Below are positions 22,569 to 51,005 of a DNA stretch of 64,000 nucleotides, in pieces. The stretch is from the sequence record MH719082.1, one strand, 5' to 3'. The stretch is from Escherichia phage vB_EcoM_IME392. The notes under the pieces were generated by a model, which worked only from the letters and a program-made list of their open reading frames with translations, was not told the DNA's origin and did no database searches. Both the position numbers and the translations under genes were made by a program. Every line of letters begins with the position of its first letter. Within the stretch, counting starts at the first letter, position 1.

Positions 22569-22574
22569 GGATCA

Positions 22575-23483: not shown

Positions 23484-26342
23484 ATGGTTAGCATAGTTAG
23501 AGGCATATCTGGGATTGCTCGTACAGAAGCTACCGATCCGATTAAGGATGCCTCTGATTACGAGCATGCCAGGTCTAAATTGGAAGAAGATCTTATCGGG
23601 ATCCGTTCTACGGTTAAGATACTCTCCAGCAACGATGTAGATGTAGGTCTTAGCTCCGATGAAGTTAAGACCCTGAATACACTGATGGGTAAGTTTTACG
23701 GCAGGGCTAAGTTCTCTACCCAGGAAGCTGAGCAGCTGATCTCCTTAAGAGATAAAGTCGGCCAGGTTGCGGATATGTACGCTACTGCCGAGGATCAAAA
23801 GGCCATCGCTGCGGAATCTTTACTCGACACCTATCAGTCAATATTAAATGACTCTAGACTTACTCGTGGCGTCCGTATGACTGCTATGAGAGAACTGAGT
23901 GGGTTACTTCGGGTACTTAACGTATCCAATTCCTCACTTAGTACTATCAATATGCGGAAGAATAACCGCATCATTGAGCAAGCTAGAGCTGAGTTAGCCA
24001 ATCAGAACGTAAAGATTAAATATTCTGATACGGTAAAGGTTGCTAACTTAACGAACAGGAGTAAGGATGAGAGGGATACTCTTGACAGATTTAACATACG
24101 TCAAACTGGCCGTAATTTAAGGGATTCGTTCCTTAATACCCCATCGCAGTTTTCCGTAGGTTCTGTCCGCAAGGAAGCACTCTCATCAGGTCTAGGTGCC
24201 TTAGGTTTAGGGGACCTGGATAGTGTATTCGGTATATCTGATAAATTGGATGGTGCCATATCATCCATGTTCCGTAAAAGGAAAGATGAACCGGATACTA
24301 CTGACGAAGAATTAAAGGCCATATCTCGAGAGATTCTTAAATCAGAAAATAAACCCGATGGAGAATCTTCCACTGAGGCCTCTGCTAAAGTCGACGGTAA
24401 AGAGGCTAAGGTCGAGATTACTACTCCAGATGCTACTGTAAATCCAAAACCCAGTTTCGGACCTACTCCAGAAGAGGAGCAGAATCAGAAGCTGGACGAG
24501 ATTAACAACAGCATTCGAGAGTTAATTAATGAGACTAGGTCTGGCCAGGACGAACTGTCCCGTAAGCAGACTCAGTTAATTAATGGTCAGTCTACTTTGG
24601 TGGATATCGATGAGCAACTGGTATCGGTAACCAGAGCTAATGGAAGAGCTAACCATGAAGAAATTGATCCTTTCGCTAACGAACAGAAGCAGGGTGCTGC
24701 TGATTCTATCTTTGATGATCTTATCGGTGGTGGCGATGAGCGTGGCCGCAGAGGTAGAAGAGGTAGGGGAAGAAGAGGCAGGACTCGTCTCGGTCGTGGA
24801 CTCAGCAGGTTCGGTAGACTCGGCAGGATGGCAGGCAGAGCAGTCGACGCAGCTGCCACCGGAGGACTTGCGAGAGGTGCTGCTCGTGGAGGTGGTGCGC
24901 TTCTGAGAGCTGGCCTTAAGGGAGCTAAGTTCATCCCAGGAATCGGGTTAGCCGTAACTGCTGGTATGGGAGTTTATGATGCTGTCTCTGGATGGGATGG
25001 AGATAAGGCTAAGGAACTATTCGGTAGTGACGATAACTGGGCTAAGGCTGGCTCATCTGCAGCCTCACTATCCTCTGGGTTAACTTTAGGGTTAGCATCT
25101 CCAGAGGATGTAGTGAATGTCGCTAAGTCTGCTGTAGATACTGTACAGAAGACATACGAAGGTGCGGTTAATATTGCAAATAACCTAACGGCGTCATTCT
25201 CAGGGATGTATAAGAATGCGTCCGACTGGCTTTCCAAGTCCGTCTCCGATACATCTAAGTGGTTCTCCGATAGTTACGACTCAGTAACCAAGTCCATAAC
25301 CGGAGAAATCAGTGAATTATCTAACTTGGTTACAGAATTTATAAATGATCCTATGAAGTCTATAGGTGAAGGTATTGGTGGCCTATTTGATTGGCTATCA
25401 GACCTACCGGTAGTCGGTGACTTCTTTAAAGGACTTAAGAAAGGAGCTGTTGCGGTATCCAATGGGATTATCGGAGCAGGTGCCTCCATAGTTAATGGCG
25501 CAAGAGCTGTTGGTGGAATAATATCCAATGGTTATGACAGTGCTGTTGATGCCGGTGGTAGTATCCTACAGTCCGCTATGCAGAATGCCTCTCGATACCT
25601 CCCAAGCTCTAAGGAGCAGACGGAGCGTAAGAACAATCTGGCAGAGTATGCTAAGCAGCAGGGAATCGACGATAAAGAATTGGCTCTATTCATGGGCCAG
25701 GTTCAGCATGAATCTGGTAACTTCCGTTATAATAAAGAACTAGCCTCTGGTAAAGCGTACGAGGGTCGTAAAGACCTGGGTAACGTAAATCCTGGGGACG
25801 GGGTTCGTTATAAGGGTCGTGGCTGGATACAGCTTACTGGTAGGGCTAATTACCAGAAATATGGTAAGATGCTGGGTATAGATCTCGAAAATAATCCGGA
25901 GATGGCTGAAGATCCTGAAATCGCCAATAAGTTGGCGGTTGCATATTGGAAAGATCGTGTGCGACCACAGCTGGAGAAGAAAGGATCTACTGTTGAAGTG
26001 GCAACTAAGGCAGTCAATGGTGGGTATAATGGGTTAGCAGACCGTGCTGCATATACTGCAGAATGGATGAAGAATGGTTCTGATGCTGAGGCATCTAAGT
26101 CAGGAGCTACCCAGGTTGCTCAGAACGTACCTCTCGAGGTCCCTAAAGCTCCTACCCCTACAGACGATGTTAATAAACAACGTCAAGATCAGAATAATCA
26201 ATTGGCTGCTATGGCTGCTGGTTCCACCAGAAATCAGGATCCTGCTGCTATAACTCCTAACGTACCTTCAGTGGTTACGGATAAGAGTGACACTATTGAT
26301 GACTATGGTCTGGCGTTCTTCAACAAGATGGTGTTCTCATAA
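23484..26342 (+). CDS. tape measure protein with GH19-like lysozyme domain
   Basis: 952 aa; Arg/Gly-rich tract RGRRGRRGRGRRGRTRLGRG; GH19-like block QVQHESGNFRY...YKGRGWIQLTGRANY. Confidence 0.7.
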   Translation: MVSIVRGISGIARTEATDPIKDASDYEHARSKLEEDLIGIRSTVKILSSNDVDVGLSSDEVKTLNTLMGKFYGRAKFSTQEAEQLISLRDKVGQVADMYATAEDQKAIAAESLLDTYQSILNDSRLTRGVRMTAMRELSGLLRVLNVSNSSLSTINMRKNNRIIEQARAELANQNVKIKYSDTVKVANLTNRSKDERDTLDRFNIRQTGRNLRDSFLNTPSQFSVGSVRKEALSSGLGALGLGDLDSVFGISDKLDGAISSMFRKRKDEPDTTDEELKAISREILKSENKPDGESSTEASAKVDGKEAKVEITTPDATVNPKPSFGPTPEEEQNQKLDEINNSIRELINETRSGQDELSRKQTQLINGQSTLVDIDEQLVSVTRANGRANHEEIDPFANEQKQGAADSIFDDLIGGGDERGRRGRRGRGRRGRTRLGRGLSRFGRLGRMAGRAVDAAATGGLARGAARGGGALLRAGLKGAKFIPGIGLAVTAGMGVYDAVSGWDGDKAKELFGSDDNWAKAGSSAASLSSGLTLGLASPEDVVNVAKSAVDTVQKTYEGAVNIANNLTASFSGMYKNASDWLSKSVSDTSKWFSDSYDSVTKSITGEISELSNLVTEFINDPMKSIGEGIGGLFDWLSDLPVVGDFFKGLKKGAVAVSNGIIGAGASIVNGARAVGGIISNGYDSAVDAGGSILQSAMQNASRYLPSSKEQTERKNNLAEYAKQQGIDDKELALFMGQVQHESGNFRYNKELASGKAYEGRKDLGNVNPGDGVRYKGRGWIQLTGRANYQKYGKMLGIDLENNPEMAEDPEIANKLAVAYWKDRVRPQLEKKGSTVEVATKAVNGGYNGLADRAAYTAEWMKNGSDAEASKSGATQVAQNVPLEVPKAPTPTDDVNKQRQDQNNQLAAMAAGSTRNQDPAAITPNVPSVVTDKSDTIDDYGLAFFNKMVFS

Positions 26343-26977
26343 TGGCAGTATTAGACATCGAGAAGCTATACGCGAATCCAGATGCTAGAATTGTCTTAGT
26401 CCATCCTGGTAACAAGTCCCGTACTGTAGGTCTTATAGAGACGGATTTCGGATTCGATATTTCGTCTCTGTTTGAATCTGGTGAAAACTTGATGGCTGGT
26501 ACCTTAACGCGAGGTGCTAACGCGGTAGCTAATACCGTGGGTATGGATCAGATGGTTATACGAAATATTCGTGAAACTATCGCTCAGTGGCGAGGAAGTA
26601 CCAAACCAGTATTTCCAGTGCCTCTGACAATTATCTCATACAATCCATCCATCAGACCTTTGGACATAGTTAAAGAGTTCCTGGCTGGGGTAACATACAC
26701 TACCAAGAACGGACTTATGTTCGGAGCTCCTAATGGGTACTCTGTAACCAAGGCGACTGGTAATTTCAATCCGGATACCGCTATAACAGGTACATGGACT
26801 CTGCAGATCGGCCAGTGGTTCAGGGCAACTAGCCTTATACTCGTGAACGTGTCGACTCAGTACAGCAAGGAAATAGCTCGCTCTACTGGTCAGCCGTTAT
26901 GGGCTAAGGTGCAACTGTCCTTCACCCCAGCATATCTGCCGGATGAGGATCATGTAAGATCCTGGTTTATTAAATAG
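26342..26977 (+). CDS. hypothetical tail/baseplate protein
   Basis: ORF, translationally coupled. Confidence 0.5.
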   Translation: MAVLDIEKLYANPDARIVLVHPGNKSRTVGLIETDFGFDISSLFESGENLMAGTLTRGANAVANTVGMDQMVIRNIRETIAQWRGSTKPVFPVPLTIISYNPSIRPLDIVKEFLAGVTYTTKNGLMFGAPNGYSVTKATGNFNPDTAITGTWTLQIGQWFRATSLILVNVSTQYSKEIARSTGQPLWAKVQLSFTPAYLPDEDHVRSWFIK

Positions 26978-26984
26978 GTGACTT

Positions 26985-27362
26985 ATGTTCAAGATAGACT
27001 CAGACAAATTGGCTCAGAGGTATGATATCTCTAAATTCATGTCTAATGAGAATGGGTCTATCTTGGACTCTGTTGATTCTGAATTTATGTACAAACTGAA
27101 GAATCTTTCTCGGTATGGTACATATACAGTGATCTCAGAAGTGGGTAGACCCGACCTACTCTCAGAACGAATCTATGGTGCTGGATTGACTCAGTACTGG
27201 TGGATTCTTATGATGGTGAATGAGTTGCGGTTCCCATGGGACTTAACCATGAACTTAGTTCTGAGATATCCACTGATTGACGATCTGGAAGATATTTACT
27301 TCTCGCTGACTCCAGATGTGTCATCTGTCTCCGCTACTGCTAAAGTGGAGAGCTTATCATGA
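26985..27362 (+). CDS. hypothetical tail/baseplate protein
   Basis: ORF with RBS. Confidence 0.5.
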   Translation: MFKIDSDKLAQRYDISKFMSNENGSILDSVDSEFMYKLKNLSRYGTYTVISEVGRPDLLSERIYGAGLTQYWWILMMVNELRFPWDLTMNLVLRYPLIDDLEDIYFSLTPDVSSVSATAKVESLS

Positions 27363-28483
27363 TAGGTGTAAAAGGTCAATATGTTGCCATGTTTAAGATT
27401 GGCGACTTTAAAGACTTCATCGGCCCTAGAGATCTTATCCAGTTTAAGATCATCGAAGAGGCTGGTAACGTTATGCCTACTTATGAGCTAGTTTTCGAGT
27501 GCCGAGATGAGCAAATAGTCTCAGTACTCAAGGAAGGCAATTTCATTTATGCCAGTTTCGGTCGTAACGAAGCTAGCATGATTAACGTTAAGTTAGCCAT
27601 CCTAAAACGTCAGAAAACTAATTTCGGAGTAGGGTCTCAAATCCTCAGAGTACTGGGAGTCTTCGGAGCTGTTCCGTACAGAATAGATTCCCAGGCAGCA
27701 AGTCATACTGGTACCTCAATAGAGGTGATGAAGTCTATAGTCTCTAAGTATTTTAAGGCAGACTTCAATTGCCCAGCATCTGATAACAAGATGAACTGGC
27801 TGCAGAATAACATTAACGATCGAGATTTCGTTAACCAGTTATGGCTTCACAGTAATTTAAACTCCGATACTCCATTGGTAGGTATTACTACTGATGGTTT
27901 GTTTAGGGTCCGGTCTATCTCTACAGCAGTGGACAGGAATAATCCTAACTGGAAGTTAACTTCCCTAGAGACCAAAGATGCCGGTGCTATTTATTACGAT
28001 AAGCCACCTAACATCTATAGCGATTCAGGAGCAGTAAATGCTCTTGGTGGCTATGCCAAATCCAGGATTGTTCACAATCAGAGCGACAATCAGTCGTTCT
28101 ACTCCACTCCTCAGGGATCCCCTATCCTATCAGTATCGAGTAATCAGGAAGTCTCGGATACGGGACGGCGTCTGGGAGGAGTGTCCATCCTTAATGAGAA
28201 TGTACATTCTTCCTACCATTCGTCCTTCGATTACAACATCCGAAACCTCCTCCGATTATCCATGATGAAAGCCAAGGTCGAGATTACTGGGTATTATTTC
28301 AATATCAGAGTTCTCGATTCTGTGTTACTTAAAGAAGACTCTGATGCTCGTCGTAAGGAAGCCAATATGGATTCGTCAGGTCTTTGGCTAACCCAGAAGG
28401 TGTGCAGGATCTTCACTAACAAAGACTTATGTACCGTCCTTACGTTATGCAGAGATGGGATGAATAATTCCAGAGAGGTTTAA
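27359..28483 (+). CDS. baseplate hub candidate
   Basis: 374 aa, ATGA overlap with upstream gene. Confidence 0.4.
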   Translation: MIGVKGQYVAMFKIGDFKDFIGPRDLIQFKIIEEAGNVMPTYELVFECRDEQIVSVLKEGNFIYASFGRNEASMINVKLAILKRQKTNFGVGSQILRVLGVFGAVPYRIDSQAASHTGTSIEVMKSIVSKYFKADFNCPASDNKMNWLQNNINDRDFVNQLWLHSNLNSDTPLVGITTDGLFRVRSISTAVDRNNPNWKLTSLETKDAGAIYYDKPPNIYSDSGAVNALGGYAKSRIVHNQSDNQSFYSTPQGSPILSVSSNQEVSDTGRRLGGVSILNENVHSSYHSSFDYNIRNLLRLSMMKAKVEITGYYFNIRVLDSVLLKEDSDARRKEANMDSSGLWLTQKVCRIFTNKDLCTVLTLCRDGMNNSREV

Positions 28484-28485
28484 GT

Positions 28486-29145
28486 ATGATAAATATTATA
28501 GACCTCATGCGTAATGGTCAGGATCCTCTGAAGGCCATCCATAAGGGAGTAGTCGTTGATAATAACGACCCTGCCCAAAAATGCAGAGTAAAGGTTAGGG
28601 TTCCTGGGGTACTCGATGGTGATGGTATCCCATGGGCCATTCCTATTGCATCTGCATTCCTGGGGGATGGGGAATCTGACCGTGTGGAAATACCAGAAGT
28701 AGGTACCGAGGTATCTGTCTCGTTCCCCACAGGAGATCAGCATTTCCCATTCTACACTGGGAGATGGCACTCTAAGGAAGTCCCGGAAGAGTTTAAAGAG
28801 AATTATCCCAATAGGTACGGATTTAAGGATTCTACCGGCACTGTATTCTATATAGATAAAGTGTCTAAGGAAGTTCATTTTAAGCACTGTTCTGGATTTC
28901 AGTTCGATATTGACCAAGAGGCTAATTTTACTCTCACCACCCCAGGAGGAGGTAAGGTCGATATCGCTAAAGCTCTGGAGATAATCGCCAAAGAGCATAT
29001 CAAACTGGATACTCCTCTTGTCGATGGAACAGGAGAGATCAAGGACAAGGTTCGCAAGATGTCGGAAGATCGCGCTATCTACAACGGTCACGATCATGTT
29101 GGCGATAGTGGTGGTAGTACATCTCCGCCTAACTCTAAACAGTAG
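28486..29145 (+). CDS. baseplate spike (gpV/gp5-like) protein
   Basis: 219 aa; N-terminal KGVVVDNNDP...RVKVRVPG...IPWA pattern. Confidence 0.5.
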   Translation: MINIIDLMRNGQDPLKAIHKGVVVDNNDPAQKCRVKVRVPGVLDGDGIPWAIPIASAFLGDGESDRVEIPEVGTEVSVSFPTGDQHFPFYTGRWHSKEVPEEFKENYPNRYGFKDSTGTVFYIDKVSKEVHFKHCSGFQFDIDQEANFTLTTPGGGKVDIAKALEIIAKEHIKLDTPLVDGTGEIKDKVRKMSEDRAIYNGHDHVGDSGGSTSPPNSKQ

Positions 29146-29149
29146 GTTC

Positions 29150-29521
29150 ATGATGGTTCAGCCAATTTATCGAGATATAGACCAGACCCTTAAGCGTAAC
29201 TCGCTTAAGGATGGTGATGCAGTATTTCAGGCCATAGTTAATGTACTGAAGACTCGCAAAGGTACCAGAATGTTTAATATGGAGTTTGGTTCTAATCTCG
29301 AAGATATCATCATGGAACCATGCGACGATATCACTGGTCTGCAAGTTTATGCAGAGGTGGTCGACGCTGTTACGAGATGGGAGCCAAGAGCCCTGTTAGA
29401 CCGAGGTAAAACTAAGGTTACTCCTGATCCGGATAATCACATATTCTGGGTAGACTTATGGTTCTCTGTCAAAGGAATCGATGGTCAAGAATTTAACTAC
29501 GAGGTGGGTCTGAAACGATGA
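29150..29521 (+). CDS. baseplate wedge protein (gp25/GPW-like)
   Basis: about 123 aa; start at ATG following upstream stop; size and position. Confidence 0.55.
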   Translation: MMVQPIYRDIDQTLKRNSLKDGDAVFQAIVNVLKTRKGTRMFNMEFGSNLEDIIMEPCDDITGLQVYAEVVDAVTRWEPRALLDRGKTKVTPDPDNHIFWVDLWFSVKGIDGQEFNYEVGLKR

Positions 29522-30891
29522 ACATAATTCAAGATTCCTCTCTATCCTTCGACCAGATCAGAACGGATTTAGAGAACTATATTAAGTCTCTTCCAGATTA
29601 TGAGACTAAGTGGAAGGACTTCTACGAGGCTGGTGCTGGCGAAACAGTACTTAATACTGGTGCTGGTATCACTGCATTCTTAGCTTACGCTGCCTACATG
29701 AACCGCCGAGATTCGTTACTGGATTTCGGCAATATGACCTCGACCATCGTGTCTATTGGGTCTGCATTAGGTTACGTGTATAATCGTAAATCTGCTCCTC
29801 TTCTCCAGATTACGTTTACATCCACTGAGCAAGTTTACTGGGATAAGGAAGATCCTATCGGTAACTACATGGGTCGTTCTCTGGTTCTCACCAACTCCAC
29901 CCAAATAGAAGTTGGCGTGAACACCATTGTGGTTGCTATAGGTGATTGGGTCTCTCAGGAGATAACCATCACTGATGCTAAGGATTTTAAAGGTATCAAC
30001 GTACCTATTCAGCCTGATAATAATCTGGTTAACCTGTATATCGATGGAGAGAAGATCTCCTACACCACAGCTGCGGAAGATATGGATTCGGACAATGTCC
30101 TAATTCGTTCTTACTTCTCGGGAATATTCATTATCTTCGGGAACGGGTCACTGGGCAGGAAGGCTGCTGTTAACCAGGTACTTAAGATAGAGTACGTTGC
30201 TCCCGCTGATAAACTAGATGGGTTAACTCTGGATCCTACCAAGATTCAGTTATACGTTGAAAATACGAGTAACTCATCTGAAGTTAAATACCCTGGGTCA
30301 GACCCTGATAGTCCTGAGAAGATCGTTGCTATTGCTCCTGGTTATTATTCAGCCAAGAGACGTCTGGTTACTCTGGACGATTACGCTTCGATAGGTGCTT
30401 CTTATCAGGGTGTGGTAAGTGCTAACGCTGCTCTTCCGACTACTTCTTGCTGCTCGGTTAACGTCTCGTACCTACGAGCCGATGAATTAACCATGAATGA
30501 TGCTATGAAGGCAGATTTCGAGAAGTATATGCTGCAGTACGCCATGCTGGGTTCTAACATAAATGTTATAGACCCTATCAGGATCATGGTCGATGTTAAG
30601 ATGCGAGTGGTTATTGACTCCGGAGCTGATACGGATGCCATTACCAAGAAGATTCGTGAAACCATAAATAAAAAGTGCATGACTAACGGTGCATTCTTTA
30701 CGGTTAACGATATGACTCTGCCAGAGTCTCTTCGCGTTAGACGTATCTACATTAAGCAGCCTATTCTTGACCGACAGGCTAAGTACAATGAGTACTATAA
30801 GCTCCGCAAACTGGAGATCAGTTATACGGAAGATCGGACTCTGGTAGATTCCGGAGGCACAGATAAGAATGCGGGGTATGAGTATGGCTAA
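29518..30891 (+). CDS. baseplate J-like protein
   Basis: 457 aa directly after gp25-like gene, ATGA overlap. Confidence 0.5.
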   Translation: MNIIQDSSLSFDQIRTDLENYIKSLPDYETKWKDFYEAGAGETVLNTGAGITAFLAYAAYMNRRDSLLDFGNMTSTIVSIGSALGYVYNRKSAPLLQITFTSTEQVYWDKEDPIGNYMGRSLVLTNSTQIEVGVNTIVVAIGDWVSQEITITDAKDFKGINVPIQPDNNLVNLYIDGEKISYTTAAEDMDSDNVLIRSYFSGIFIIFGNGSLGRKAAVNQVLKIEYVAPADKLDGLTLDPTKIQLYVENTSNSSEVKYPGSDPDSPEKIVAIAPGYYSAKRRLVTLDDYASIGASYQGVVSANAALPTTSCCSVNVSYLRADELTMNDAMKADFEKYMLQYAMLGSNINVIDPIRIMVDVKMRVVIDSGADTDAITKKIRETINKKCMTNGAFFTVNDMTLPESLRVRRIYIKQPILDRQAKYNEYYKLRKLEISYTEDRTLVDSGGTDKNAGYEYG

Positions 30892-32362
30892 GTTCAACAC
30901 TCTAGATTACTTCTCTCCTAACCTTAGAGGGAACGAGTTATATAAGTTCTTCTCGCAGGTGCTGGATCATGGTCTAGAGACTGTTGTCTTTCCGGAGATG
31001 GATAAAAATACGGCGATTTATGATCCTAGTAAACCGTCTTATGATCCGATTTATATCCTGGAGCTACTGGGTCAACCAGACTTAGCAGATCTCATAACTA
31101 CCGAGGTAGACCAGAACTCAGTATCTGTACTCCTCCCAAGTATCCTTGATAACAAGGGTATGAAGGATGGGGTTGATCTTATCTTTAAGCTGATAAATGT
31201 AGAGATAGAAGAGATATTGTATCAGAAGACTCCGGAAGGCTGCTCACTGGCAACCATCCTGCTTCCTAAGAACGTGATCTTGTCTACTCGGCAGATTAAG
31301 CTAATTGATCGTCTGTCGCGTAAGGTATTTCCGATATGCGTAAGACTTACCGGTATCGCTAACTGTCTTCCAGATGGCGTTGAATCTCTCGGAAGCGCCT
31401 CCTTGGACACCAGTTGGTTGCTAGACACATCAATCCTGGATGGTTCAGTAGGTATACGAGTCCCAGATATTTCGGATACTCTATGGCTGCGATTCTGTCT
31501 CGATATTATGTCGGAGATGGAAGTACCTCTTGAAGTGTTGATTGATCGCTTCTCGGATCGTCTGATGAACTCTTATCTGACTGTATTCGATAGGAGAACT
31601 ATCAAGCTAGATAATGGTCTTATTCTGGATATGGGTACATACTTAGATCTCCAGAATACCGACACTGCTCACAGCAGACTCTATAGCTCATTGGCTAAGT
31701 TTAATGTAGATTTAAGCGCCGATTCCAGAACTACTGAGATTGAGTCCTTACTGGACTTATCAGACTTGGTAGCTGGGTTGGAGTTTAAGTCCTCTATGCT
31801 GCGTGAGATCTTCCTGTTCTTGGATATCGACCTCTCAGAGTTCGGATTCCAGAATTACATGGATAGGAAGATAGAGCACTTATCCAAGGGGATAGAGCAA
31901 GTAAATTATGGATATGAGGGTGGTAATTACGCTGATGGTTACGATTTAACTAACTATCAGGGTTTCGAATACGAGAACTTATACGTAATCCAATCTCATC
32001 GTGATGGCCAAACTCAGCGTAGCGGGACGGCTTATTACGGATTGCCGGAAATAGACTGGCTACACTTCGAAGGTATGGACTTCATTAATGGGTCTTACCT
32101 GCTGGATGGTACTCGTTATCTTCACCAGGAGTTCATTAAAAAGATCAAAGTGTACGATTGGTATACTCATTGGTCTAGCTACCGAGAAGCTATGTTCCTA
32201 ACCACTCATAAGACCGAAAGACTCTTAGAGAAACGGGATGGGACTATTCTCCATGACGGAACTTATAATCGCGGTGAGAAAGTAACTCGTTACGGATTCG
32301 AACCTCTGTACAACGACGTTATTAGTCACGATGATACTTACTATCGCGATGCCAATCTATAG
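30869..32362 (+). CDS. baseplate/tail-fibre-associated protein
   Basis: 497 aa; alternative starts at 30878/30884. Confidence 0.45.
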   Translation: MRGMSMAKFNTLDYFSPNLRGNELYKFFSQVLDHGLETVVFPEMDKNTAIYDPSKPSYDPIYILELLGQPDLADLITTEVDQNSVSVLLPSILDNKGMKDGVDLIFKLINVEIEEILYQKTPEGCSLATILLPKNVILSTRQIKLIDRLSRKVFPICVRLTGIANCLPDGVESLGSASLDTSWLLDTSILDGSVGIRVPDISDTLWLRFCLDIMSEMEVPLEVLIDRFSDRLMNSYLTVFDRRTIKLDNGLILDMGTYLDLQNTDTAHSRLYSSLAKFNVDLSADSRTTEIESLLDLSDLVAGLEFKSSMLREIFLFLDIDLSEFGFQNYMDRKIEHLSKGIEQVNYGYEGGNYADGYDLTNYQGFEYENLYVIQSHRDGQTQRSGTAYYGLPEIDWLHFEGMDFINGSYLLDGTRYLHQEFIKKIKVYDWYTHWSSYREAMFLTTHKTERLLEKRDGTILHDGTYNRGEKVTRYGFEPLYNDVISHDDTYYRDANL

Positions 32363-32370
32363 GTGATTAG

Positions 32371-33138: not shown

Positions 33139-33150
33139 TAGGATATCGAA

Positions 33151-34068: not shown

Positions 34069-34077
34069 GGAATACCC

Positions 34078-34419: not shown

Positions 34420-34420
34420 T

Positions 34421-36195: not shown

Positions 36196-36206
36196 AGAGG
36201 TATAAA

Positions 36207-38266: not shown

Positions 38267-38341
38267 TATTTATTAAGGGGTAGTTATGTCAATTAATTAC
38301 ATGACTCCAGATAGTATCGTGATTGTAAGTGAGGTGTCAAT

Positions 38342-38965: not shown

Positions 38966-39044
38966 ATAAATAGCTACAATAGCAGGTGCAACTTGTACAT
39001 GGGTTATGATAAACGAAGTGTTGACAATATCATAGGGTGATTAA

Positions 39045-42032: not shown

Positions 42033-42155
42033 ATAAAGACTTTTACCGTAGGTAGGAGAAGGTAGAGGCTTCAATTTAAGATTTAACTTAAACTAATCAC
42101 CACTCTAAAGTTACTAAGTGTTTGTACATCATGTAATATTTTATGGAGATCACCA

Positions 42156-44777: not shown

Positions 44778-44801
44778 TAGATTAAACTGAGGAGATTCTT
44801 G

Positions 44802-46253
44802 ATGTCCACCCAATTGCCAGATAGTCTGCAGTTAAGCAGCCTTAAGTACAAAGGTGACTATGCGGCTGGTATCTATCTAAACGGTAACCACTGCATTCTC
44901 AGATTTGTGCGTACTGATGGTAAGAAGGTGTTGGTTAAGTGGGTGGGGGACATCCCCCACACCACCGACGGTGAAACTCCGTATGCCGATGCCGAACAAA
45001 CTACTCTTAAAGCTGGATACGAGATCTTCGCCCAGACGAATGCAGTAGACTTCATTATTTCAATGCTTGGATCTTCTACCTCCTGGCGCTACATTGGCCA
45101 GGTAAACTCTGTGGAAGATCTGAAAACTATCACTCCTAAAGATGGCGATAGAGTGATGGTTAAAGGGTACTTCGGAGAGGGTACTCCTGGTGGTGGCGAG
45201 TTCAGAGTTAAAACGGAAAGCGACTCCATAGCCTCTGATAGTAAGGATGTGGTAAACGGTTGGGTAAGGGTTCGTCGTAGTAGAGAGTTCAGAGCTACCG
45301 AATTTGGTGCTGTTCCTGATAAATTCACTGACTCTACTGGTCAGGTTCAGGATATGCTTACCACTATCACCACTGGTCTGGCTATTATCGACCCAGGTGT
45401 AAAATACACTCTGGCCAGCTTAACTATTAAGCCTGGCGTCCAGATTCTGGATATGTCTGGATGGGATGGTAATTCATGGACGGCTGCAGTGAGATTCATC
45501 AGTAACTCTACTGATGGTTTAATTATCTCGTCTGCATCCAACGCTAACCTTAACCTTAACAGTAATAACGGGTTAGCCAGAGCTAAGGTATCTTACAGCG
45601 TAAGCGGAACTAAGATCTGGGAATCGGGTATGAGCGATGACTCTAACCGTGACTGGCATGTTCTTCGCGGAGCTGAATCTCGTTATCGTGTGGTAGCCTC
45701 TTCCCAGACTCACGCATGGAACCGAGATACCATAGTTGAAGGTGTCGATTACCACTTCGGTAAGAGAGCATCAGAGGATCATATTCTTCGATACGATGCA
45801 GTGAATACTGGCTATGATATCATTCATACCTACTATCACGGACCTACTCTTACTTCTAAGGTAACCCATAAAGGCGATGGATCAGTAGTCCTGACCCAGA
45901 ATGGTAAGGATACCATCAAGATAGTAGATGGTGTAATGACTGGTGCTCTTAAGAAGATCATCACGTCTACAGCTAATGTAACTCTTACCGCAGCTGATAC
46001 CGGTGCTATCTGCACTACCGATGGTGCCACTTCTGCTGTTACCGTTACCCTGCCAGTCGCTGTTCCTGGTATGACCTATGATGTTCTTGTAGGTGCCAAC
46101 TACAGCGTATCAGTAAAAACTGGTGGTACAGATCTCTTCCGTAATGGGAAAGCCACTATTTCCAACTCGGATAAGGGATCCTGGTTACGCTTAGTTTGTG
46201 CTATCTCTGGTTACTGGGAGATGGATACTGTTCAGGGTACCTGGGCAAGTTAA
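44802..46253 (+). CDS. tailspike/tail fibre protein
   Basis: ATG 44802 after GAGGAG; 483 aa in RBP gene series. Confidence 0.5.
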   Translation: MSTQLPDSLQLSSLKYKGDYAAGIYLNGNHCILRFVRTDGKKVLVKWVGDIPHTTDGETPYADAEQTTLKAGYEIFAQTNAVDFIISMLGSSTSWRYIGQVNSVEDLKTITPKDGDRVMVKGYFGEGTPGGGEFRVKTESDSIASDSKDVVNGWVRVRRSREFRATEFGAVPDKFTDSTGQVQDMLTTITTGLAIIDPGVKYTLASLTIKPGVQILDMSGWDGNSWTAAVRFISNSTDGLIISSASNANLNLNSNNGLARAKVSYSVSGTKIWESGMSDDSNRDWHVLRGAESRYRVVASSQTHAWNRDTIVEGVDYHFGKRASEDHILRYDAVNTGYDIIHTYYHGPTLTSKVTHKGDGSVVLTQNGKDTIKIVDGVMTGALKKIITSTANVTLTAADTGAICTTDGATSAVTVTLPVAVPGMTYDVLVGANYSVSVKTGGTDLFRNGKATISNSDKGSWLRLVCAISGYWEMDTVQGTWAS

Positions 46254-46269
46254 TTAAACGGAGACTACT

Positions 46270-47091: not shown

Positions 47092-47102
47092 TGGAGTAAT
47101 AA

Positions 47103-50100
47103 ATGGCAACTTTACCGTCTGATTACTTTAACAGATTTGCGGCTAAGAAGAACTACGCCAAGCATCTGTTTATCGCGGACAGGCCGCTCCAGAGCTCGGA
47201 GCTAAACGAAATTCAGGATCAGCAGCTCAATAACGTCTCTACACTGTCCGGCTTCTTGGTCGGTGATGGTGCCATTACTGATGGGGCGGATATTTCCGCT
47301 CTTGGAGACGGTGTAATCTCTATAACCGAAGGTACGCTAATCTATGCCGGTATGGCTATGAATGTACCTGCTGTTACGGATGCATCGTTTCCTACTGCTG
47401 GTGAGGCTGTTTTAGGTGTATCTATCTCTGATAAGGTAATCACCTATCTCGAAGATCCTGAGCTCCTCATGCAGTATCAGAACTCTCCGAGCTATGGTTC
47501 AGCTGGTGCTGACCGTCTCCAGAAGGTAACTACTTGGCTGTTGGCCGATGATGTTCCAGAAGGAGATACCTTCTTCCCAGTATTCTATTTCAAGAATGGC
47601 GTACTGGTTAAGACCACCAAGTCTCGTAATGATCTCGACCAGTTCTCTGGTCTTCTTGGTCGCTACGATTCTGATACTCACGGTAACTATGTTCTGGACG
47701 GATTAACTCTGTCCTATGCAGGCATCGATGGCTCTACCCAGCAGATTATGTTGAACATGTCTGCGGGCAAGGCTCGTGTACTCGGAAACGAAGCACTGTT
47801 CGCCTATGAAAGTACCGTGCGTCTGGACCCTATCAACGATACTGGTAACGTAGCTTCAGAGCCATACGTGTTTACAGCAGGTACTTACACCTATCAACTG
47901 CGCTACTCTGTAATTGATCAGGTAACTGCTGTATCCGGTACTAAGCAGGTAACTCGTACGGTGACTCATGGTTCCGCAACGGGTTCGTCTGACTTACTTC
48001 CGGATACTCCTGTTCTGCAGATTATTTCTGTACAGCAGGGTGGTACTGTCTACGTTAAAGGTAGTGACTATGTACAGAACGGGGACTCTGTAGACTGGTC
48101 ACCTACTGGTAACGAACCATCTCCTGGTTCTACTTACCAGGTTACGTATCAGTACATTGATCAGTTCATCCCGACCTGGAACGATACCTCCATCACTATT
48201 TCCACCAGTGATGCTCTGGTATCTGGGTCTACGTTCTACGTAACCTACTCTTACTTCCTGTCTCGCTATGACCGTGTATCTATCGATGCCTCTGGTGCGG
48301 TTCAGATCACTAAGGGTATTCCGGCAATCTTGGCAAACGCTCAGTTACCAGGTACTTCAGCTACGTTGCTGTCTATCGCAACTGTTCGTCTGACTAAGGG
48401 TCAAGATCCGGTCATTAACAATGACCGCATCGAAGTGGTTACTTATAATGAGCTAAAAGATCTGATGTCTCTGGTAAGCGACATGCAGTACAACATCGCC
48501 CAGCTTTCGCTCCGTGATGAAACTCGCTCTACCGATCCGACTACGACTAAGAAAGGTGTAGTAGTTGACTCCCTGCTTAACGGTAACATGCGTGATGCTG
48601 GATTAACCAACAACGCCATTATCGATGATGGTCAGCTGTTCATCGGAGCATCTTTCTCACGACAGTCCAGTCTGGCTCCTGATGGTATTATGTTATCATT
48701 CACTGATACCGTAATTCAGTCTCAGGAATTCCGTACTAAGGACACCCGCATCAACCCGTATGCTGGGTCTGGTCAGGTACCTCAGGCGATGATCTCTGTT
48801 TCACCAGCTAAGATCGATACTCGTAGCTTCTGGTCGTACTTCCATGGTGGCTTTCTGCCGGTAGATACTACGATCACGATTAAGCTATCTGGGTATGCTG
48901 CCAACGAACAGATTGATCTTACTTTCCGTAACCTGCCAGTGGTTACCTTGACTGCGGATGATAACGGTGCTGTACAGTATGCTCATATGCTGTCTGGTGG
49001 TTTGGTTAACGGTACGTATCAGTATGTTGCTACTGGTAAGACCACTAAGGCTATTACTCGCGGTACCGTAACCATCTACAACTCTGGTAAAGTCGACTAC
49101 GGTCAGAACTGGACTGGTGGTGCTGTTCCGTGGGGTTACGATCCAGTGGCTCAGACCTTCACTATCCAGGCTACTCGTGATATTAACGCAGTATCTATCT
49201 ATCTGACTGAGCTGCCTACTAACACACTCCAGATTAAACTGGTCCCTACTTTGGTAGGTATCCCTAACTCCACTCAGCTTTATGGCTTCGGTGAAGTTCC
49301 GGCTAATAAGTGTGTACTGGGGTGGAACAAGATCAATCTTCGTTATCCAGTAACAGTGACTGGTGGTACTGAGTATGCCATCATAGTTGCTACGGCTAAC
49401 TATCAGGGTAAGGTAGCCACAGCTAAGATAAACGGATATGATCCCGATAAGCAGCAGTATGTAGTGAATCAGCCAGCTCAGGGTGTTCTTCTGACTTCTG
49501 CGAACGAATCTACCTGGTCTCCAGTTCAGGATGAAGACTTAGTGTATCGTCTCCATGCTGCTGACTATAGTTCTACTCGCACTGTTAACTTGGGTTCTGT
49601 AACGGTGGCTAGCAATACCAACAGTCTTTCGCTTACTGCTGATATTGAGACTCCGGCAAATACCTCCGTGAGATTCTATCTCACTAACGGTACTGATAAC
49701 ATTAACCTCAACGTTAACTCTGAAACGTATACTGAGAACTTCTCTGGTACTTTCAGTCTGATGGCTGAGTTTAATACCGGTGATCCTACTGTATCTCCGA
49801 AGGTCTTCGGTGGCGTCATCTTCCGTTCTGGTACTACTGATACCCCTGGGGTATATACCCAGCGTCAGTTCAGTATTCCTAACGGTAACATTACTCCGGT
49901 AACTCTTAACGTCATCTTGGATCAGTATGTACCATCTGGTGCTAGCGTAACCGTTCAGTACCAGAAGGATAGCGAATGGGTAGCCTTGTCAGGGAGTACC
50001 GGAACCGCTCTGGGAGATGGGTGGTACACTGTACCTTACAAACTGTCAGGAGTAAATGTGGCTAATACCCGCATCCGTATCACCCTGTCTCTATCCAACC

Positions 50101-50147
50101 CAGTTAACCGTCCGTTCGTTAAGAACGTTCGAGCATACTTTAGTTAA
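47103..50147 (+). CDS. large tail fibre/spike protein
   Basis: 1014 aa, last large ORF of RBP locus. Confidence 0.5.
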   Translation: MATLPSDYFNRFAAKKNYAKHLFIADRPLQSSELNEIQDQQLNNVSTLSGFLVGDGAITDGADISALGDGVISITEGTLIYAGMAMNVPAVTDASFPTAGEAVLGVSISDKVITYLEDPELLMQYQNSPSYGSAGADRLQKVTTWLLADDVPEGDTFFPVFYFKNGVLVKTTKSRNDLDQFSGLLGRYDSDTHGNYVLDGLTLSYAGIDGSTQQIMLNMSAGKARVLGNEALFAYESTVRLDPINDTGNVASEPYVFTAGTYTYQLRYSVIDQVTAVSGTKQVTRTVTHGSATGSSDLLPDTPVLQIISVQQGGTVYVKGSDYVQNGDSVDWSPTGNEPSPGSTYQVTYQYIDQFIPTWNDTSITISTSDALVSGSTFYVTYSYFLSRYDRVSIDASGAVQITKGIPAILANAQLPGTSATLLSIATVRLTKGQDPVINNDRIEVVTYNELKDLMSLVSDMQYNIAQLSLRDETRSTDPTTTKKGVVVDSLLNGNMRDAGLTNNAIIDDGQLFIGASFSRQSSLAPDGIMLSFTDTVIQSQEFRTKDTRINPYAGSGQVPQAMISVSPAKIDTRSFWSYFHGGFLPVDTTITIKLSGYAANEQIDLTFRNLPVVTLTADDNGAVQYAHMLSGGLVNGTYQYVATGKTTKAITRGTVTIYNSGKVDYGQNWTGGAVPWGYDPVAQTFTIQATRDINAVSIYLTELPTNTLQIKLVPTLVGIPNSTQLYGFGEVPANKCVLGWNKINLRYPVTVTGGTEYAIIVATANYQGKVATAKINGYDPDKQQYVVNQPAQGVLLTSANESTWSPVQDEDLVYRLHAADYSSTRTVNLGSVTVASNTNSLSLTADIETPANTSVRFYLTNGTDNINLNVNSETYTENFSGTFSLMAEFNTGDPTVSPKVFGGVIFRSGTTDTPGVYTQRQFSIPNGNITPVTLNVILDQYVPSGASVTVQYQKDSEWVALSGSTGTALGDGWYTVPYKLSGVNVANTRIRITLSLSNPVNRPFVKNVRAYFS

Positions 50148-50156
50148 GGAGTAAAC

Positions 50157-50333
50157 ATGTCTAGCAACGAACCATGGTTCAAGACTGGATTCGAAACAGA
50201 AATACCGGCAGTAGCGCCGGTAAACTCAATCTTCCAGTCCTTACAAGGTAAAAGATGGAGATTCGACGGCCAGGGATGGGTCGAAATAGAGTCACTACAG
50301 GTGGCTCTCCAGAGAAAACAGGCTCAGAAGTGA
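50157..50333 (+). CDS. small hypothetical protein (absent from ORF track)
   Basis: ATG at 50157 after TAAGGAGTAAAC; 58 aa MSSNEPWFKTGFETEIP... Confidence 0.35.
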   Translation: MSSNEPWFKTGFETEIPAVAPVNSIFQSLQGKRWRFDGQGWVEIESLQVALQRKQAQK

Positions 50334-50357
50334 GCCTTAACTAGGTAGGGGTATAAT

Positions 50358-51005
50358 ATGAGCGTTACACTTGACCAGCTGAAGAAGTTCCTCCCGACAA
50401 CTTCAACGGAAGTGCTGGAAAAGCTGCTACCCGCCATTAATACTACTATCGAGCGTTACGGTATCAATACCAATCGTCGTCTGCGCTATTTTATGGCGCA
50501 GACTGCCTTTGAAACTCGGGACTACACTAAGTTTGTGGAGTCCCTGTATTATACCTCTGCGTCTCGTCTGGTAGCTGTGTGGCCGAGTAGATTTACTCTT
50601 CGCGGTGAACCTGGTAAGCTTAATGCTAATGCTTACATACGCGACCCTGAGAAGTTAGCCAATCAGGTGTATGCTAATCGCATGGGTAACGGAACTCCAG
50701 CTAGCGGAGACGGGTATAAGTACATTGGCCGTGGAGCTATGCATCTAACTGGCAAAGCTAACTATCGAGAGGCCTCTTTGAGTATCTTTGGCGATGACCG
50801 TTTGGTAGAAGATCCAGAGTTAGTAGAGACGGATTTCGAAACGATCATGCTTACTGCAGGGTGGTTCTGGGATAAAAATAAATTAAATCAATTAGCAGAT
50901 CAGGACGCATTCACCAAAGTAACCCAGAAGATAAATGGGTCTGCTGCGACCGTACCTGACCGACTGCCTGTACTACGCAGAGCAAATCAGACTTTAACTC
51001 TTTAA
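50358..51005 (+). CDS. endolysin, GH19-like lysozyme/chitinase family
   Basis: 215 aa; YFMAQTAFETRDY and YKYIGRGAMHLTGKANY. Confidence 0.7.
   Translation: MSVTLDQLKKFLPTTSTEVLEKLLPAINTTIERYGINTNRRLRYFMAQTAFETRDYTKFVESLYYTSASRLVAVWPSRFTLRGEPGKLNANAYIRDPEKLANQVYANRMGNGTPASGDGYKYIGRGAMHLTGKANYREASLSIFGDDRLVEDPELVETDFETIMLTAGWFWDKNKLNQLADQDAFTKVTQKINGSAATVPDRLPVLRRANQTLTL

What the first reader, a model, noticed from the sequence alone, without database searches (positions are those of the whole stretch)
23484..51005. Two GH19-like lysozyme domains: one inside the tape measure protein, one as the endolysin
The tape measure protein carries a GH19-like block about 700-800 aa in, as well as an Arg/Gly-rich low-complexity tract. 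The stand-alone endolysin (50358-51005) has the same family signature but is clearly diverged. This indicates a virion-associated lysin for entry plus a separate enzyme for exit.
Basis: partly seen in the sequence, partly recalled or inferred. Interest (0 to 1): 0.45.

Follow-up and report, generated by a model that had tools for sequence, protein, structure and literature searches.

The report
Tail tape-measure lysin plus separate endolysin
This E. coli phage (vB_EcoM_IME392) carries two diverged copies of one cell-wall-cutting enzyme type (GH19): one is built into the long protein that fills the tail, probably to breach the wall on entry, and one is a free enzyme in a standard lysis cassette for exit, a known strategy seen here with an enzyme type not yet studied in that role.

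Summary
ORF 23484-26342 (952 aa) and ORF 50358-51005 (215 aa) both pass Pfam's GH19 threshold. Both keep the endolysin-type catalytic triad: E743/E752/T785 and E52/E61/T131, matching SPN1S E49/E58/T130.

The two domains are only 25-33% identical and are not recent paralogues. The tail-borne copy lacks the roughly 38-aa peptidoglycan-binding insertion that the free endolysin keeps.

The 952-aa protein sits where a tape measure sits: sheath, tube, two small ORFs, this ORF, then baseplate hub, spike and wedge. It is the only candidate in the module. It does not itself hit any tape-measure model. However, 76 distant relatives of its GH19-free N-terminal 700 aa include proteins that hit tape-measure PHROGs. 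At the same relative position these relatives carry GH19, VgrG3-like lysozyme, VanY, SLT, glucosaminidase, amidase, GH24 or NlpC/P60 domains. Many end in the same C-terminal motif.

The free enzyme is followed by holin-like and spanin-like ORFs.

Verdict: a virion-associated lysin embedded in a tape measure, plus a canonical endolysin. It is a new member of a known kind. Function is inferred, not shown.

The parts
23484..26342 (+). 952-aa tape-measure-like protein carrying the GH19 domain (virion-associated lysin candidate)
   Evidence: ORF. 100% identical to the IME392 'putative glycoside hydrolase'. It lies between sheath/tube and the baseplate genes. Relatives of aa 1-700 hit tape-measure PHROGs.
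23484..24734 (+). N-terminal part (aa 1-417), predicted almost wholly alpha-helical; presumed length-determining rod
   Evidence: DSSP of the AF2 model, which is low-confidence at pLDDT 38, so indicative only. Conserved in 4-5 homologues.
24735..24839 (+). Arg/Gly-rich tract (aa 418-452)
   Evidence: 15 R and 10 G in 35 aa. Arg positions are invariant in homologues. An equivalent tract precedes the hydrophobic core in Vibrio phage Va2 and in many distant relatives.
24801..25163 (+). Conserved core (aa 440-560), including the Gly/Ala-rich hydrophobic segment aa 473-505 (KFIPGIG...GWD)
   Evidence: Most of the 76 remote hits align to this region. phrog_26249 hits it at 1.8e-11. It shows 27% identity to Va2 outside the GH19 domain, E=8e-12. 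Hydropathy.
25440..25538 (+). Second Gly/Ala-rich hydrophobic segment (aa 653-685)
   Evidence: Kyte-Doolittle maximum of 1.44.
25611..26075 (+). GH19 catalytic domain (aa 710-864), short form without the peptidoglycan-binding insertion. Catalytic codons: E743 at 25710-25712, E752 at 25737-25739, T785 at 25836-25838.
   Evidence: Pfam. PDB phmmer. AF2 pLDDT above 94. Foldseek top hit 9ms7, TM 0.78, rmsd 2.4 A. Residue mapping.
26280..26339 (+). Extreme C-terminal motif DKSDTIDDYGLAFFNKMVFS (aa 933-952); presumed hub or tube-tip anchor
   Evidence: Invariant in 5 homologues. The pattern [DN]D[YFILV][GSN][LI] occurs in the last 25 aa of 17 of 50 long remote relatives that were found using only the N-terminal profile. 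It occurs in 0 of 120 stand-alone GH19 proteins.
50358..51005 (+). 215-aa stand-alone GH19 endolysin. Catalytic codons: E52 at 50511-50513, E61 at 50538-50540, T131 at 50748-50750. Peptidoglycan-binding-type insertion at aa 62-107 (nt 50541-50678).
   Evidence: No transmembrane segment or signal peptide. 49-54% identical to the endolysins of BcepSaruman, phiRSL1 and Motura.
51020..51436 (+). Holin candidate (138 aa, strong transmembrane segment at aa 13-37)
   Evidence: Hydropathy. It hits only an unknown-function PHROG, 9685. Assigned by position next to the endolysin.
51440..51670 (+). i-spanin candidate (76 aa, N-terminal transmembrane segment)
   Evidence: No family hit.
51519..51728 (+). 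o-spanin candidate (69 aa, lipoprotein signal with lipobox LVSC), overlapping the previous ORF in another frame
   Evidence: Sequence. Weak hit to phrog_3198 'Rz-like spanin', E=1.7e-3.
19743..23405 (+). Upstream context: tail sheath (19743-21542), tail tube (about 21553-22077), a 158-aa ORF and a 276-aa ORF
   Evidence: phrog_23 sheath at 2.2e-62. phrog_4542 tube at 2.5e-5, and phrog_150 hub at 3.8e-6. PF12322 T4_baseplate at 5e-5, which is below its cut-off.
26342..30891 (+). Downstream context: a 211-aa ORF, a 125-aa ORF, a 374-aa hub-like ORF, a gpV/VgrG-type spike (28486-29145), a gp25/gpW-like ORF (29018-29521) and a gp6/gpJ-like wedge ORF (29518-30891)
   Evidence: PF04717 Phage_base_V at 3e-12. 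phrog_430, phrog_261, phrog_43 and phrog_219. The 374-aa ORF is homologous to its positional counterpart in Va2 (3e-19) and Motura (8e-10).

Best explanation
IME392 is a contractile-tailed phage that uses one enzyme fold twice.

(1) The 952-aa protein is the tail tape measure. It has these parts:
- a long helical N-terminal rod;
- a basic Arg/Gly tract;
- two Gly/Ala-rich hydrophobic segments;
- a compact GH19 muramidase domain (aa 710-864);
- a flexible linker ending in a conserved C-terminal anchor motif.

Inferred steps for entry:
- The protein lies in the tube lumen with its C-terminal end at the baseplate hub.
- After sheath contraction and loss of the spike, it leaves the tube C-terminus first.
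- The GH19 domain cuts a local hole in the peptidoglycan.
- The hydrophobic segments then insert into the inner membrane to help form the DNA conduit. This is as reported for T5 Pb2 and, in a recent preprint, for T4 gp29.
- The tail itself delivers the enzyme to the wall, so this copy has no wall-binding insertion.

(2) The 215-aa GH19 protein is the cytoplasmic endolysin. It keeps the SPN1S-type peptidoglycan-binding insertion. A holin releases it at the end of infection, and a spanin pair finishes lysis.

What is shown: the domain identities, the catalytic residues, the gene order, and the modular family.

What is inferred: presence in the virion, orientation in the tube, muralytic activity, timing, and the role of the Arg/Gly tract (either a positive-inside membrane anchor or a DNA contact).
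For: GH19 identity and active site:
- Pfam hits above threshold. PDB endolysin matches at 2e-21 and 2.8e-31.
- The published endolysin triad is E49/E58/T130. A motif search reproduced it in SPN1S itself and mapped it to E743/E752/T785 and E52/E61/T131.
- In a 36-sequence alignment, E743 and T785 are invariant and E752 is at least 90% conserved.
- The AF2 model has pLDDT above 94 for the domain. Foldseek returns only GH19 structures, and the best is a phage endolysin.

Tape-measure identity:
- The gene order is sheath, tube, 158 aa, 276 aa, this ORF, 211 aa, 125 aa, 374-aa hub-like, gpV spike, gpW-like, gpJ-like.
- No other long helical ORF lies in the module.
- A profile of aa 1-700, without GH19, finds 76 proteins, mostly 600-1300 aa.
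- 4 to 7 of the 61 relatives scanned hit each of seven 'tail length tape measure' PHROGs. One has Pfam Tape_meas_lam_C.

Lysin slot:
- The same relatives carry VgrG3-like_C (10), GH19 (10), VanY (4), SLT (2), glucosaminidase, Amidase_2, Phage_lysozyme, NlpC/P60 and Phage_lysozyme2.
- In the nine relatives checked, the domain lies at about aa 610-860.
- Metagenomic contig L007 has the identical gene order with a VgrG3-like domain in place of GH19.
- Vibrio phage Va2 and Achromobacter phage Motura share the synteny and carry GH19 there.

Different origins of the two copies:
- The tail-borne domain is 55-61% identical to small stand-alone GH19 proteins, and 44-52% to the tail-protein domains of Va2, PhiEaH1, S-B68 and Motura.
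- It is only 25-33% identical to its own phage's endolysin.
- The endolysin is 49-54% identical to jumbo-phage endolysins.
- The spacing from the second Glu to the GRG motif is 26 residues in the tail copy, 63 in the endolysin and 65 in SPN1S. This matches the peptidoglycan-binding module at SPN1S positions 59-106.
- It also matches the general rule that virion lysins lack wall-binding domains.

Lysis cassette.

Mechanistic precedent: a T4 preprint reports gp29 being exposed after hub release and forming a channel. The titles of the T5 Pb2 and TM4 papers appear in reference lists.
Against: - The IME392 protein itself hits no tape-measure Pfam or PHROG model. The link is transitive, and tape measures are compositionally biased, which can inflate profile scores.
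- The full-length AF2 model is unreliable (pLDDT 38).
- No tail-length measurement or virion proteome could be read, because the IME392 paper is not held.
- Three folded GH19 domains would be a tight fit inside a tube lumen. The domain may therefore sit in the hub cavity or be partly unfolded. This is untested.
- The holin and i-spanin assignments rest on hydropathy and position only.
- The T4 gp29 C-terminus does not share the anchor motif.
Confidence: 0.75

Rival explanations
1. The 952-aa protein is a tail-lumen or hub-associated lysin carrier, functionally like phiKZ gp181 or the lysozyme part of T4 gp5. It is not the protein that sets tail length. Length would be set by something else or by another mechanism.
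For: There is no direct hit to any tape-measure family. The 2222-aa PhiEaH1 protein with the related GH19 domain is from a jumbo phage. In Motura the GH19 part is a separate 498-aa protein that follows a 543-aa protein ending in a similar C-terminal motif. So the scaffold and the lysin can be uncoupled.
Against: No other candidate tape measure exists between tube and baseplate, or elsewhere in the structural module. The position is the canonical one. Relatives hit seven tape-measure PHROGs and Tape_meas_lam_C. The spike protein (219 aa, PF04717) is separate and carries no lysozyme.
Confidence: 0.15
2. The GH19 block in the large protein is not a working peptidoglycan hydrolase. It could be a structural plug, a glycan-binding module, or a chitinase-type enzyme acting on another polymer.
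For: No enzymology exists. GH19 includes chitinases and catalytically dead lectin-like members. In Va2 the second acidic position is not a Glu at the same spacing.
Against: The full endolysin-type triad is present with the Glu-x8-Glu spacing. Chitinases have E69/E87, a wider spacing. These residues are invariant or nearly so across 36 sequences. The nearest solved relatives are phage endolysins. In homologous scaffolds the same slot holds eight other kinds of known peptidoglycan hydrolase. That pattern only makes sense if cutting the wall is the selected function.
Confidence: 0.06
3. The two GH19 genes are redundant paralogues from a duplication within this phage. Either could serve in lysis, and the tail location is incidental.
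For: The family and the catalytic motif are the same. The pairwise BLASTP is significant.
Against: Identity is only 25-33%. Each copy is far closer to proteins of other phages: 55-61% for the tail copy and 49-54% for the endolysin. They differ by the roughly 38-aa insertion. In a rough neighbour-joining tree the tail-borne domains of several phages group together and the endolysin groups with SPN1S. Motura has the same two-gene arrangement with both counterparts, so the split is old.
Confidence: 0.03

Closest known systems
Mycobacteriophage TM4 tape measure protein with an embedded peptidoglycan-hydrolase motif (Piuri & Hatfull 2006; cited), and the transglycosylase domains in mycobacteriophage tape measures (PMC3314691)
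   Same: A muralytic module is embedded in the tape measure, separate from the phage's endolysin. The presumed role is local wall digestion at entry. Related domains are shared between tape measures and endolysins.
   Different: TM4 is a siphovirus of a mycolata host, and its motifs are of the Rpf/transglycosylase and peptidase types. Here the phage is a myovirus of E. coli with a complete GH19 domain near the C-terminus. No infection phenotype has been tested.
Phage T5 Pb2 (Boulanger et al. 2008; title), which acts as a tape measure and has fusogenic and muralytic activities
   Same: A Gram-negative host. One protein combines a length ruler, hydrophobic membrane-active segments and a C-terminal muralytic part.
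   Different: T5 has a non-contractile tail, and its muralytic part is not GH19. No sequence similarity to Pb2 was seen here.
T4 gp5 tail lysozyme and T4 gp29 tape measure
   Same: A contractile tail delivers a lysozyme to the periplasm. A preprint reports that gp29 is exposed after hub release and forms the inner-membrane channel.
   Different: T4 puts the lysozyme (GH24) on the spike protein gp5 and keeps gp29 free of enzyme. IME392's spike (PF04717, 219 aa) has no lysozyme, and the enzyme sits on the tape-measure-like protein. The gp29 C-terminus lacks the IME392 motif.
GH19 phage endolysins, e.g. SPN1S (PDB 4ok7), PWe2 (9ms7), P. aeruginosa GH19 endolysin (9eoi) and KTN6 gp46 (8p8e)
   Same: The fold, the Glu/Glu/Thr triad, and for the 215-aa protein the size, the insertion and the lysis-cassette context.
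   Different: The tail-borne copy is fused into a 952-aa structural protein and lacks the insertion.
T6SS lysozyme effectors: the VgrG3 C-terminal domain (PF21277) and TseP (PDB 8xcl)
   Same: A contractile injection machine carries a lysozyme-like domain into the target periplasm. The PF21277 domain occupies the same slot in relatives of the IME392 protein. TseP is a structural match to the GH19 model.
   Different: In T6SS the enzyme is fused to the spike or loaded as cargo in order to kill. Here it is on a tape-measure-like protein and serves infection.
Tape-measure-borne lytic transglycosylases of Gram-positive phages (enterococcal survey PMC10194240)
   Same: A lysin located inside the tape measure.
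   Different: The fold differs (SLT versus GH19), as do the host envelope and the tail type.

Membership tests
Glycoside hydrolase family 19, endolysin subfamily | Match to the family HMM above the curated threshold | tested here: met
   PF00182 scores 37.5 and 33.8 bits against a cut-off of 25.5.
Glycoside hydrolase family 19, endolysin subfamily | Catalytic acid and base Glu pair with endolysin spacing, plus a water-coordinating Ser/Thr (SPN1S E49, E58, T130) | tested here: met
   The definition comes from PMC8547705. The residues are E743/E752/T785 in the large protein and E52/E61/T131 in the endolysin. Conservation is shown.
Glycoside hydrolase family 19, endolysin subfamily | Bilobal alpha-helical GH19 fold | tested here: met
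   For the tail-borne domain, AF2 pLDDT is above 94 and the Foldseek top hit is 9ms7 (TM 0.78), with all 47 significant hits being GH19. The 215-aa protein was not modelled; it has sequence matches only.
Glycoside hydrolase family 19, endolysin subfamily | Hydrolysis of peptidoglycan glycan strands | not testable with these tools
   This needs an enzyme assay.
Tail tape measure protein | Gene lies between the tail tube/chaperone genes and the baseplate hub genes | tested here: met
   The same order occurs in Va2, Motura and contig L007.
Tail tape measure protein | Sequence homology to recognised tape-measure families | tested here: inconclusive
   There is no direct hit. Remote relatives of aa 1-700 hit PHROGs 167, 1272, 58, 1535, 4200, 4070 and 305, and Pfam Tape_meas_lam_C. 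Compositional bias could contribute to these scores.
Tail tape measure protein | Long, mostly alpha-helical extended protein with hydrophobic segments | tested here: inconclusive
   DSSP shows helix nearly throughout aa 1-700, but the model's pLDDT is 38. Hydrophobic Gly/Ala segments lie at aa 473-505 and 653-685.
Tail tape measure protein | Protein length determines tail length | not testable with these tools
   No micrograph data could be read. At 1.5 A per residue, 797-952 helical residues would give about 120-143 nm.
Virion-associated peptidoglycan hydrolase | Muralytic domain fused to a virion structural protein, with no cell-wall-binding domain | tested here: met
   Fusion shown. The peptidoglycan-binding insertion is absent, with a spacing of 26 versus 63-65 residues. 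The general rule is given.
Virion-associated peptidoglycan hydrolase | Physically present in the virion and active from outside the cell | not testable with these tools
   This needs virion mass spectrometry and a zymogram.
Canonical holin-endolysin-spanin lysis cassette | Soluble endolysin without a signal peptide or transmembrane segment, next to a small membrane protein | tested here: met
   The endolysin has no hydrophobic segment. The next ORF has a strong transmembrane segment.
Canonical holin-endolysin-spanin lysis cassette | An i-spanin with an N-terminal transmembrane segment and an overlapping o-spanin lipoprotein | tested here: inconclusive
   The architecture and the lipobox LVSC are present. 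The only family support is weak: phrog_3198 at E=1.7e-3. The i-spanin candidate is short at 76 aa.

The most novel reading that the evidence does not exclude
The IME392 protein belongs to a broad, so far unnamed family of myovirus tape-measure scaffolds. The family has a fixed plan: a helical rod, an Arg/Gly tract, a hydrophobic core (KxIPxxG...GWD...SGLTxGL), a 'lysin slot', a linker, and a C-terminal [I/V]DD[Y/F]G[L/I]xxxN anchor.

At least nine different peptidoglycan-hydrolase folds have been exchanged in the slot: GH19, VgrG3-like, VanY/M15, SLT, glucosaminidase, Amidase_2, GH24, NlpC/P60 and tail lysozyme 2. One of these, the VgrG3-type domain, is shared with T6SS.

Tail-borne GH19 domains would then form their own short lineage without the binding module, adapted to delivery through the tube.
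Probability: 0.45. Interest if true: 0.45.

Novelty: new member of a known kind. Interest (0 to 1): 0.33.

Why it matters
It gives a clean natural comparison within one phage. The same enzyme fold is tuned for two jobs: it is delivered by the tail without a wall-binding insertion, and it diffuses freely with one. That is useful for engineering lysins against Gram-negative bacteria.

It also corrects poor annotation. The database names are 'putative glycoside hydrolase', 'membrane-bound lytic murein transglycosylase D precursor', 'tail fiber protein' and 'hypothetical'.

It points to a scaffold family with an exchangeable lysin slot, including a domain shared with T6SS spikes. This bears on how contractile tails cross the periplasm when the spike carries no lysozyme.

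The principle of a lysin inside a tape measure is already established, so this is an extension rather than a surprise.

Tried and rejected
- Full-length AF2 model of the 952-aa protein from 5 sequences: pLDDT 38. It was not used for fold search.
- The search for related loci with the N-terminal alignment in IMG/VR: no relatives.
- Megablast and tblastn of the whole protein against the phage collection: only EP_H11 matches outside the GH19 block.
- Word-indexed homology search with aa 1-700: only 4 close homologues. The exhaustive profile search was needed to reach further (after three refusals for a full queue).
- Small 5-sequence MAFFT alignment: it misplaced the second catalytic Glu. This was resolved by motif mapping validated on SPN1S numbering and by a 36-sequence alignment.
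- The weak PF12322 hit of ORF 22575-23405 was compared with the gp26-like protein of cyanophage S-B68: no BLASTP similarity. The T4-hub link is left as weak.
- T4 gp29 C-terminus compared by eye with the IME392 C-terminal motif: not shared.
- The IME392 genome paper (Hu et al. 2021) is not held, so tail length and any proteomics could not be checked.
- Literature searches for a GH19 or chitinase domain in a tape measure found no paper describing one.
- Intragenomic duplication was considered and rejected.

Full report
**Source and observation**

The window is from Escherichia phage vB_EcoM_IME392 (116,460 bp). The product of ORF 23484-26342 is 100% identical to the NCBI protein 'putative glycoside hydrolase' of that phage. 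The only DNA-level relative in the phage collection is EP_H11. It is 91.9% identical over the large ORF and 97.1% over the small one. There the large ORF is annotated 'membrane-bound lytic murein transglycosylase D precursor'.

Both pass Pfam's gathering score for Glyco_hydro_19:
- 952-aa ORF: aa 730-827, 37.5 bits.
- 215-aa ORF: aa 117-183, 33.8 bits.
- The cut-off is 25.5 bits.

PHROG 181 'endolysin' matches at 2.4e-39 and 8.4e-60. Solved phage GH19 endolysins match at 2e-21 (9ms7) and 2.8e-31 (9eoi).

The Arg/Gly tract is real. It spans aa 418-452 with 15 Arg and 10 Gly in 35 residues.

The GH19 Engineering Database paper defines the conserved catalytic residues of the endolysin subfamily as E49, E58 and T130 in SPN1S numbering. 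For chitinases they are E69, E87 and S120.

I fetched the SPN1S endolysin. A motif search returned exactly E49/E58/T130 in SPN1S. It returned E743/E752/T785 in the large protein and E52/E61/T131 in the small one (codons checked).

A 5-sequence MAFFT alignment misplaced the second Glu. In a 36-sequence alignment, E743 and T785 are invariant and E752 is at least 90% conserved. HMMER alignments to 9ms7 and 9hnv show the same pairing.

An AF2 model of aa 700-952, built with that alignment, has pLDDT above 94 for aa 710-864. Foldseek against the PDB returns only GH19 structures at E<=1e-3. The best is the PWe2 endolysin, with TM 0.78 and rmsd 2.4 A. The refutation test is therefore not met: both domains look catalytically competent.

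**The two copies are not recent paralogues**

- They share 33% identity over 106 aa and 25% over 162 aligned columns.
- The tail-borne domain is 55-61% identical to small stand-alone GH19 proteins of 100-300 aa. All of its 120 best hits in the large protein database are in that size range.
- It is 44-52% identical to GH19 domains inside large tail-region proteins of Vibrio phage Va2, Erwinia phage PhiEaH1, cyanophage S-B68 and Achromobacter phage Motura.
- The free endolysin is 49-54% identical to the endolysins of BcepSaruman, phiRSL1 and Motura.
- In a rough neighbour-joining tree without support values, the IME392, Va2 and PhiEaH1 tail-borne domains cluster together. The IME392 endolysin groups with SPN1S.
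- The spacing from the second Glu to the GRG motif is 26 residues in the tail copy, 63 in the endolysin and 65 in SPN1S.

The last point means the endolysin keeps an insertion equivalent to the SPN1S peptidoglycan-binding module at positions 59-106, while the tail copy lacks it. That fits the general rule that virion-associated lysins do without wall-binding domains, because the virion positions them at the wall.

**Is the large protein a tape measure?**

The gene order on the + strand is:
- terminase, then a head maturation protease-like ORF and the other head genes;
- tail sheath (19743-21542; phrog_23, 2.2e-62);
- tube;
- a 158-aa ORF;
- a 276-aa ORF (weak hub-like hits);
- the 952-aa ORF;
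- 211-aa, 125-aa and 374-aa ORFs;
- a gpV/VgrG-type spike (PF04717, 3e-12);
- a gp25/gpW-like ORF and a gp6/gpJ-like ORF.

This is the canonical tape-measure position in a contractile-tail module. No other long helical ORF is in the module.

The protein itself hits no tape-measure model. The full-length AF2 model is unreliable (pLDDT 38), although it is helical almost throughout aa 1-700.

An exhaustive profile search with aa 1-700, without GH19, found 76 proteins at E<=1e-3 and 17 at E<=1e-10. Most are 600-1300 aa long. Of the 61 scanned:
- 35 hit phrog_26249.
- 4 to 7 hit each of seven 'tail length tape measure protein' PHROGs.
- One hits Pfam Tape_meas_lam_C.

So the tape-measure assignment rests on position, uniqueness in the module and transitive homology. 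I rate it likely, not proven.

**A lysin slot**

The same 61 relatives carry these domains:
- T6SS_VgrG3-like_C: 10
- GH19: 10
- VanY: 4
- SLT: 2
- Glucosaminidase, Amidase_2, Phage_lysozyme, NlpC/P60 and Phage_lysozyme2: 1 each

In the nine relatives checked, the muralytic domain sits at about aa 610-860 whatever its fold. This corresponds to aa 710-864 in IME392.

Contig L007 shows the same gene order as IME392: S77 protease, Gp23-type capsid protein, sheath (603 aa), tube (175 aa), 159 aa, 269 aa, a 1288-aa protein, 216 aa, 111 aa. Its 1288-aa protein has a VgrG3-like domain where IME392 has GH19.

Va2 has the same order with a 1064-aa GH19 protein. Outside the GH19 domain it shares 27% identity with IME392 (E=8e-12), and it has its own Arg/Gly tract. 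The 374-aa hub-like neighbour is homologous in Va2 (3e-19) and Motura (8e-10).

The extreme C-terminus (DKSDTIDDYGLAFFNKMVFS) was not part of the search profile. It nevertheless recurs as [DN]D[YFILV][GSN][LI] in the last 25 residues of 17 of 50 long relatives. It occurs in none of 120 stand-alone GH19 proteins. This is independent evidence that these are full-length orthologous scaffolds with an exchangeable enzymatic module.

**The exit enzyme**

The 215-aa protein has no hydrophobic segment. It is followed by:
- a 138-aa ORF with a strong transmembrane segment (holin candidate);
- a 76-aa ORF with an N-terminal transmembrane segment (i-spanin candidate);
- an overlapping 69-aa ORF with a lipoprotein signal and lipobox LVSC, which hits phrog_3198 'Rz-like spanin' weakly at E=1.7e-3.

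This is a standard Gram-negative lysis cassette by architecture. Its family-level support is thin.

**Mechanism (inferred)**

The tape measure lies in the tube with its C-terminal anchor at the hub. After contraction and spike release it exits C-terminus first. The GH19 domain opens the peptidoglycan locally. The Gly/Ala-rich hydrophobic segments (aa 473-505 and 653-685) then engage the inner membrane. The Arg/Gly tract acts either as a positive-inside determinant or as a DNA contact.

Precedents are the T5 Pb2 and TM4 tape measures (titles) and a 2026 preprint reporting that T4 gp29 is exposed after hub release and forms the channel. T4 places its lysozyme on the spike gp5. IME392's spike lacks one, and the enzyme is on the tape-measure-like protein instead. 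How a folded GH19 trimer fits in the tube or hub is unresolved.

**Novelty and score**

Lysins embedded in tape measures are well known. I found no paper describing a GH19 domain in a tape measure. The database records are either vaguely named or misannotated.

I classify this as a new member of a known kind, with interest 0.33. The family-wide lysin slot with a conserved C-terminal anchor, including a domain shared with T6SS spikes, is the most novel reading. It deserves a proper census.

Noticed in passing
window 31636-46236: IME392 and EP_H11 are colinear at 90-95% identity on both sides, but this 14.6-kb block is replaced in EP_H11 by about 9 kb of mostly unrelated sequence. The block holds tail fibre and tailspike genes, so the receptor-binding module has been swapped between two otherwise near-identical phages.
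   Followed up: partly
window 39045-42032 and 42156-44777: Two large tailspike-type genes lie side by side. One hits phrog_1171 'tail spike' at 7e-290. The other hits phrog_6117 'colanic acid degradation' at 3e-176. This suggests two depolymerase specificities.
   Followed up: no
window 26280-26339 (aa 933-952 of the large protein); P0126, P0129, P0131, P0141, P0146, P0160 and others: An extreme C-terminal motif, roughly [I/V]DD[Y/F]G[L/I]xxxN followed by hydrophobic residues, is shared by tape-measure-like proteins that carry different lysin domains. It occurs in 17 of 50 long relatives and in 0 of 120 stand-alone GH19 controls. It is probably the hub or tube-tip anchor.
   Followed up: partly
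L007 10001-13867 (Logan ERR3179704 contig): A syntenic relative has a T6SS VgrG3-like C-terminal lysozyme domain (PF21277, 3e-63) at the position where IME392 has GH19. The same effector domain is thus used by phage tape-measure-like proteins and by T6SS spikes.
   Followed up: partly
L006 6159-8678 (Synechococcus phage S-B68): This T4-like cyanophage encodes an 839-aa protein just after a gp26-like gene. It has Gly-rich hydrophobic stretches, a GH19 domain (E632/E641/T674) and, by eye only, a VanY/M15-like motif. It is annotated 'membrane-bound lytic murein transglycosylase D precursor', which looks like a misannotation. The record has a second GH19 match elsewhere.
   Followed up: no
L005 6506-9633 (Achromobacter phage Motura gp141 and gp140) and Motura 188079-188714: In Motura the scaffold appears split. 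A 543-aa protein ends in DFLGMYNFGMFT. It is followed by a 498-aa protein with a basic stretch, hydrophobic segments and GH19. Motura also has a separate GH19 endolysin 49.5% identical to IME392's. The two-GH19 arrangement therefore recurs in a 221-kb phage.
   Followed up: partly
window 5645-5720 and 6190-6265, minus strand: tRNA-Met (CAT) and tRNA-Arg (TCT) genes lie in a stretch with few ORFs.
   Followed up: no
window 22575-23405: The 276-aa ORF just upstream of the large protein has sub-threshold hits to T4_baseplate (PF12322, 5e-5) and phrog_150 'baseplate hub'. It also has several very weak zinc-ribbon-type hits around aa 229-247. It may be a hub assembly factor or chaperone with a Cys cluster.
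   Followed up: partly
whole phage (literature): A 2025 paper lists IME392 among phages whose DNA polymerase resembles that of YerA41. That is the group examined for thymidine hypermodification (PMC12686479). The window's right-hand part (52-64 kb) carries genes on the minus strand that were not examined here.
   Followed up: no
window 47103-50147: A 1014-aa ORF lies between the tailspikes and the endolysin. It hits only unknown-function PHROGs (phrog_877 at 1e-165, and phrog_5986). It is a conserved large virion-module protein of unknown role.
   Followed up: no
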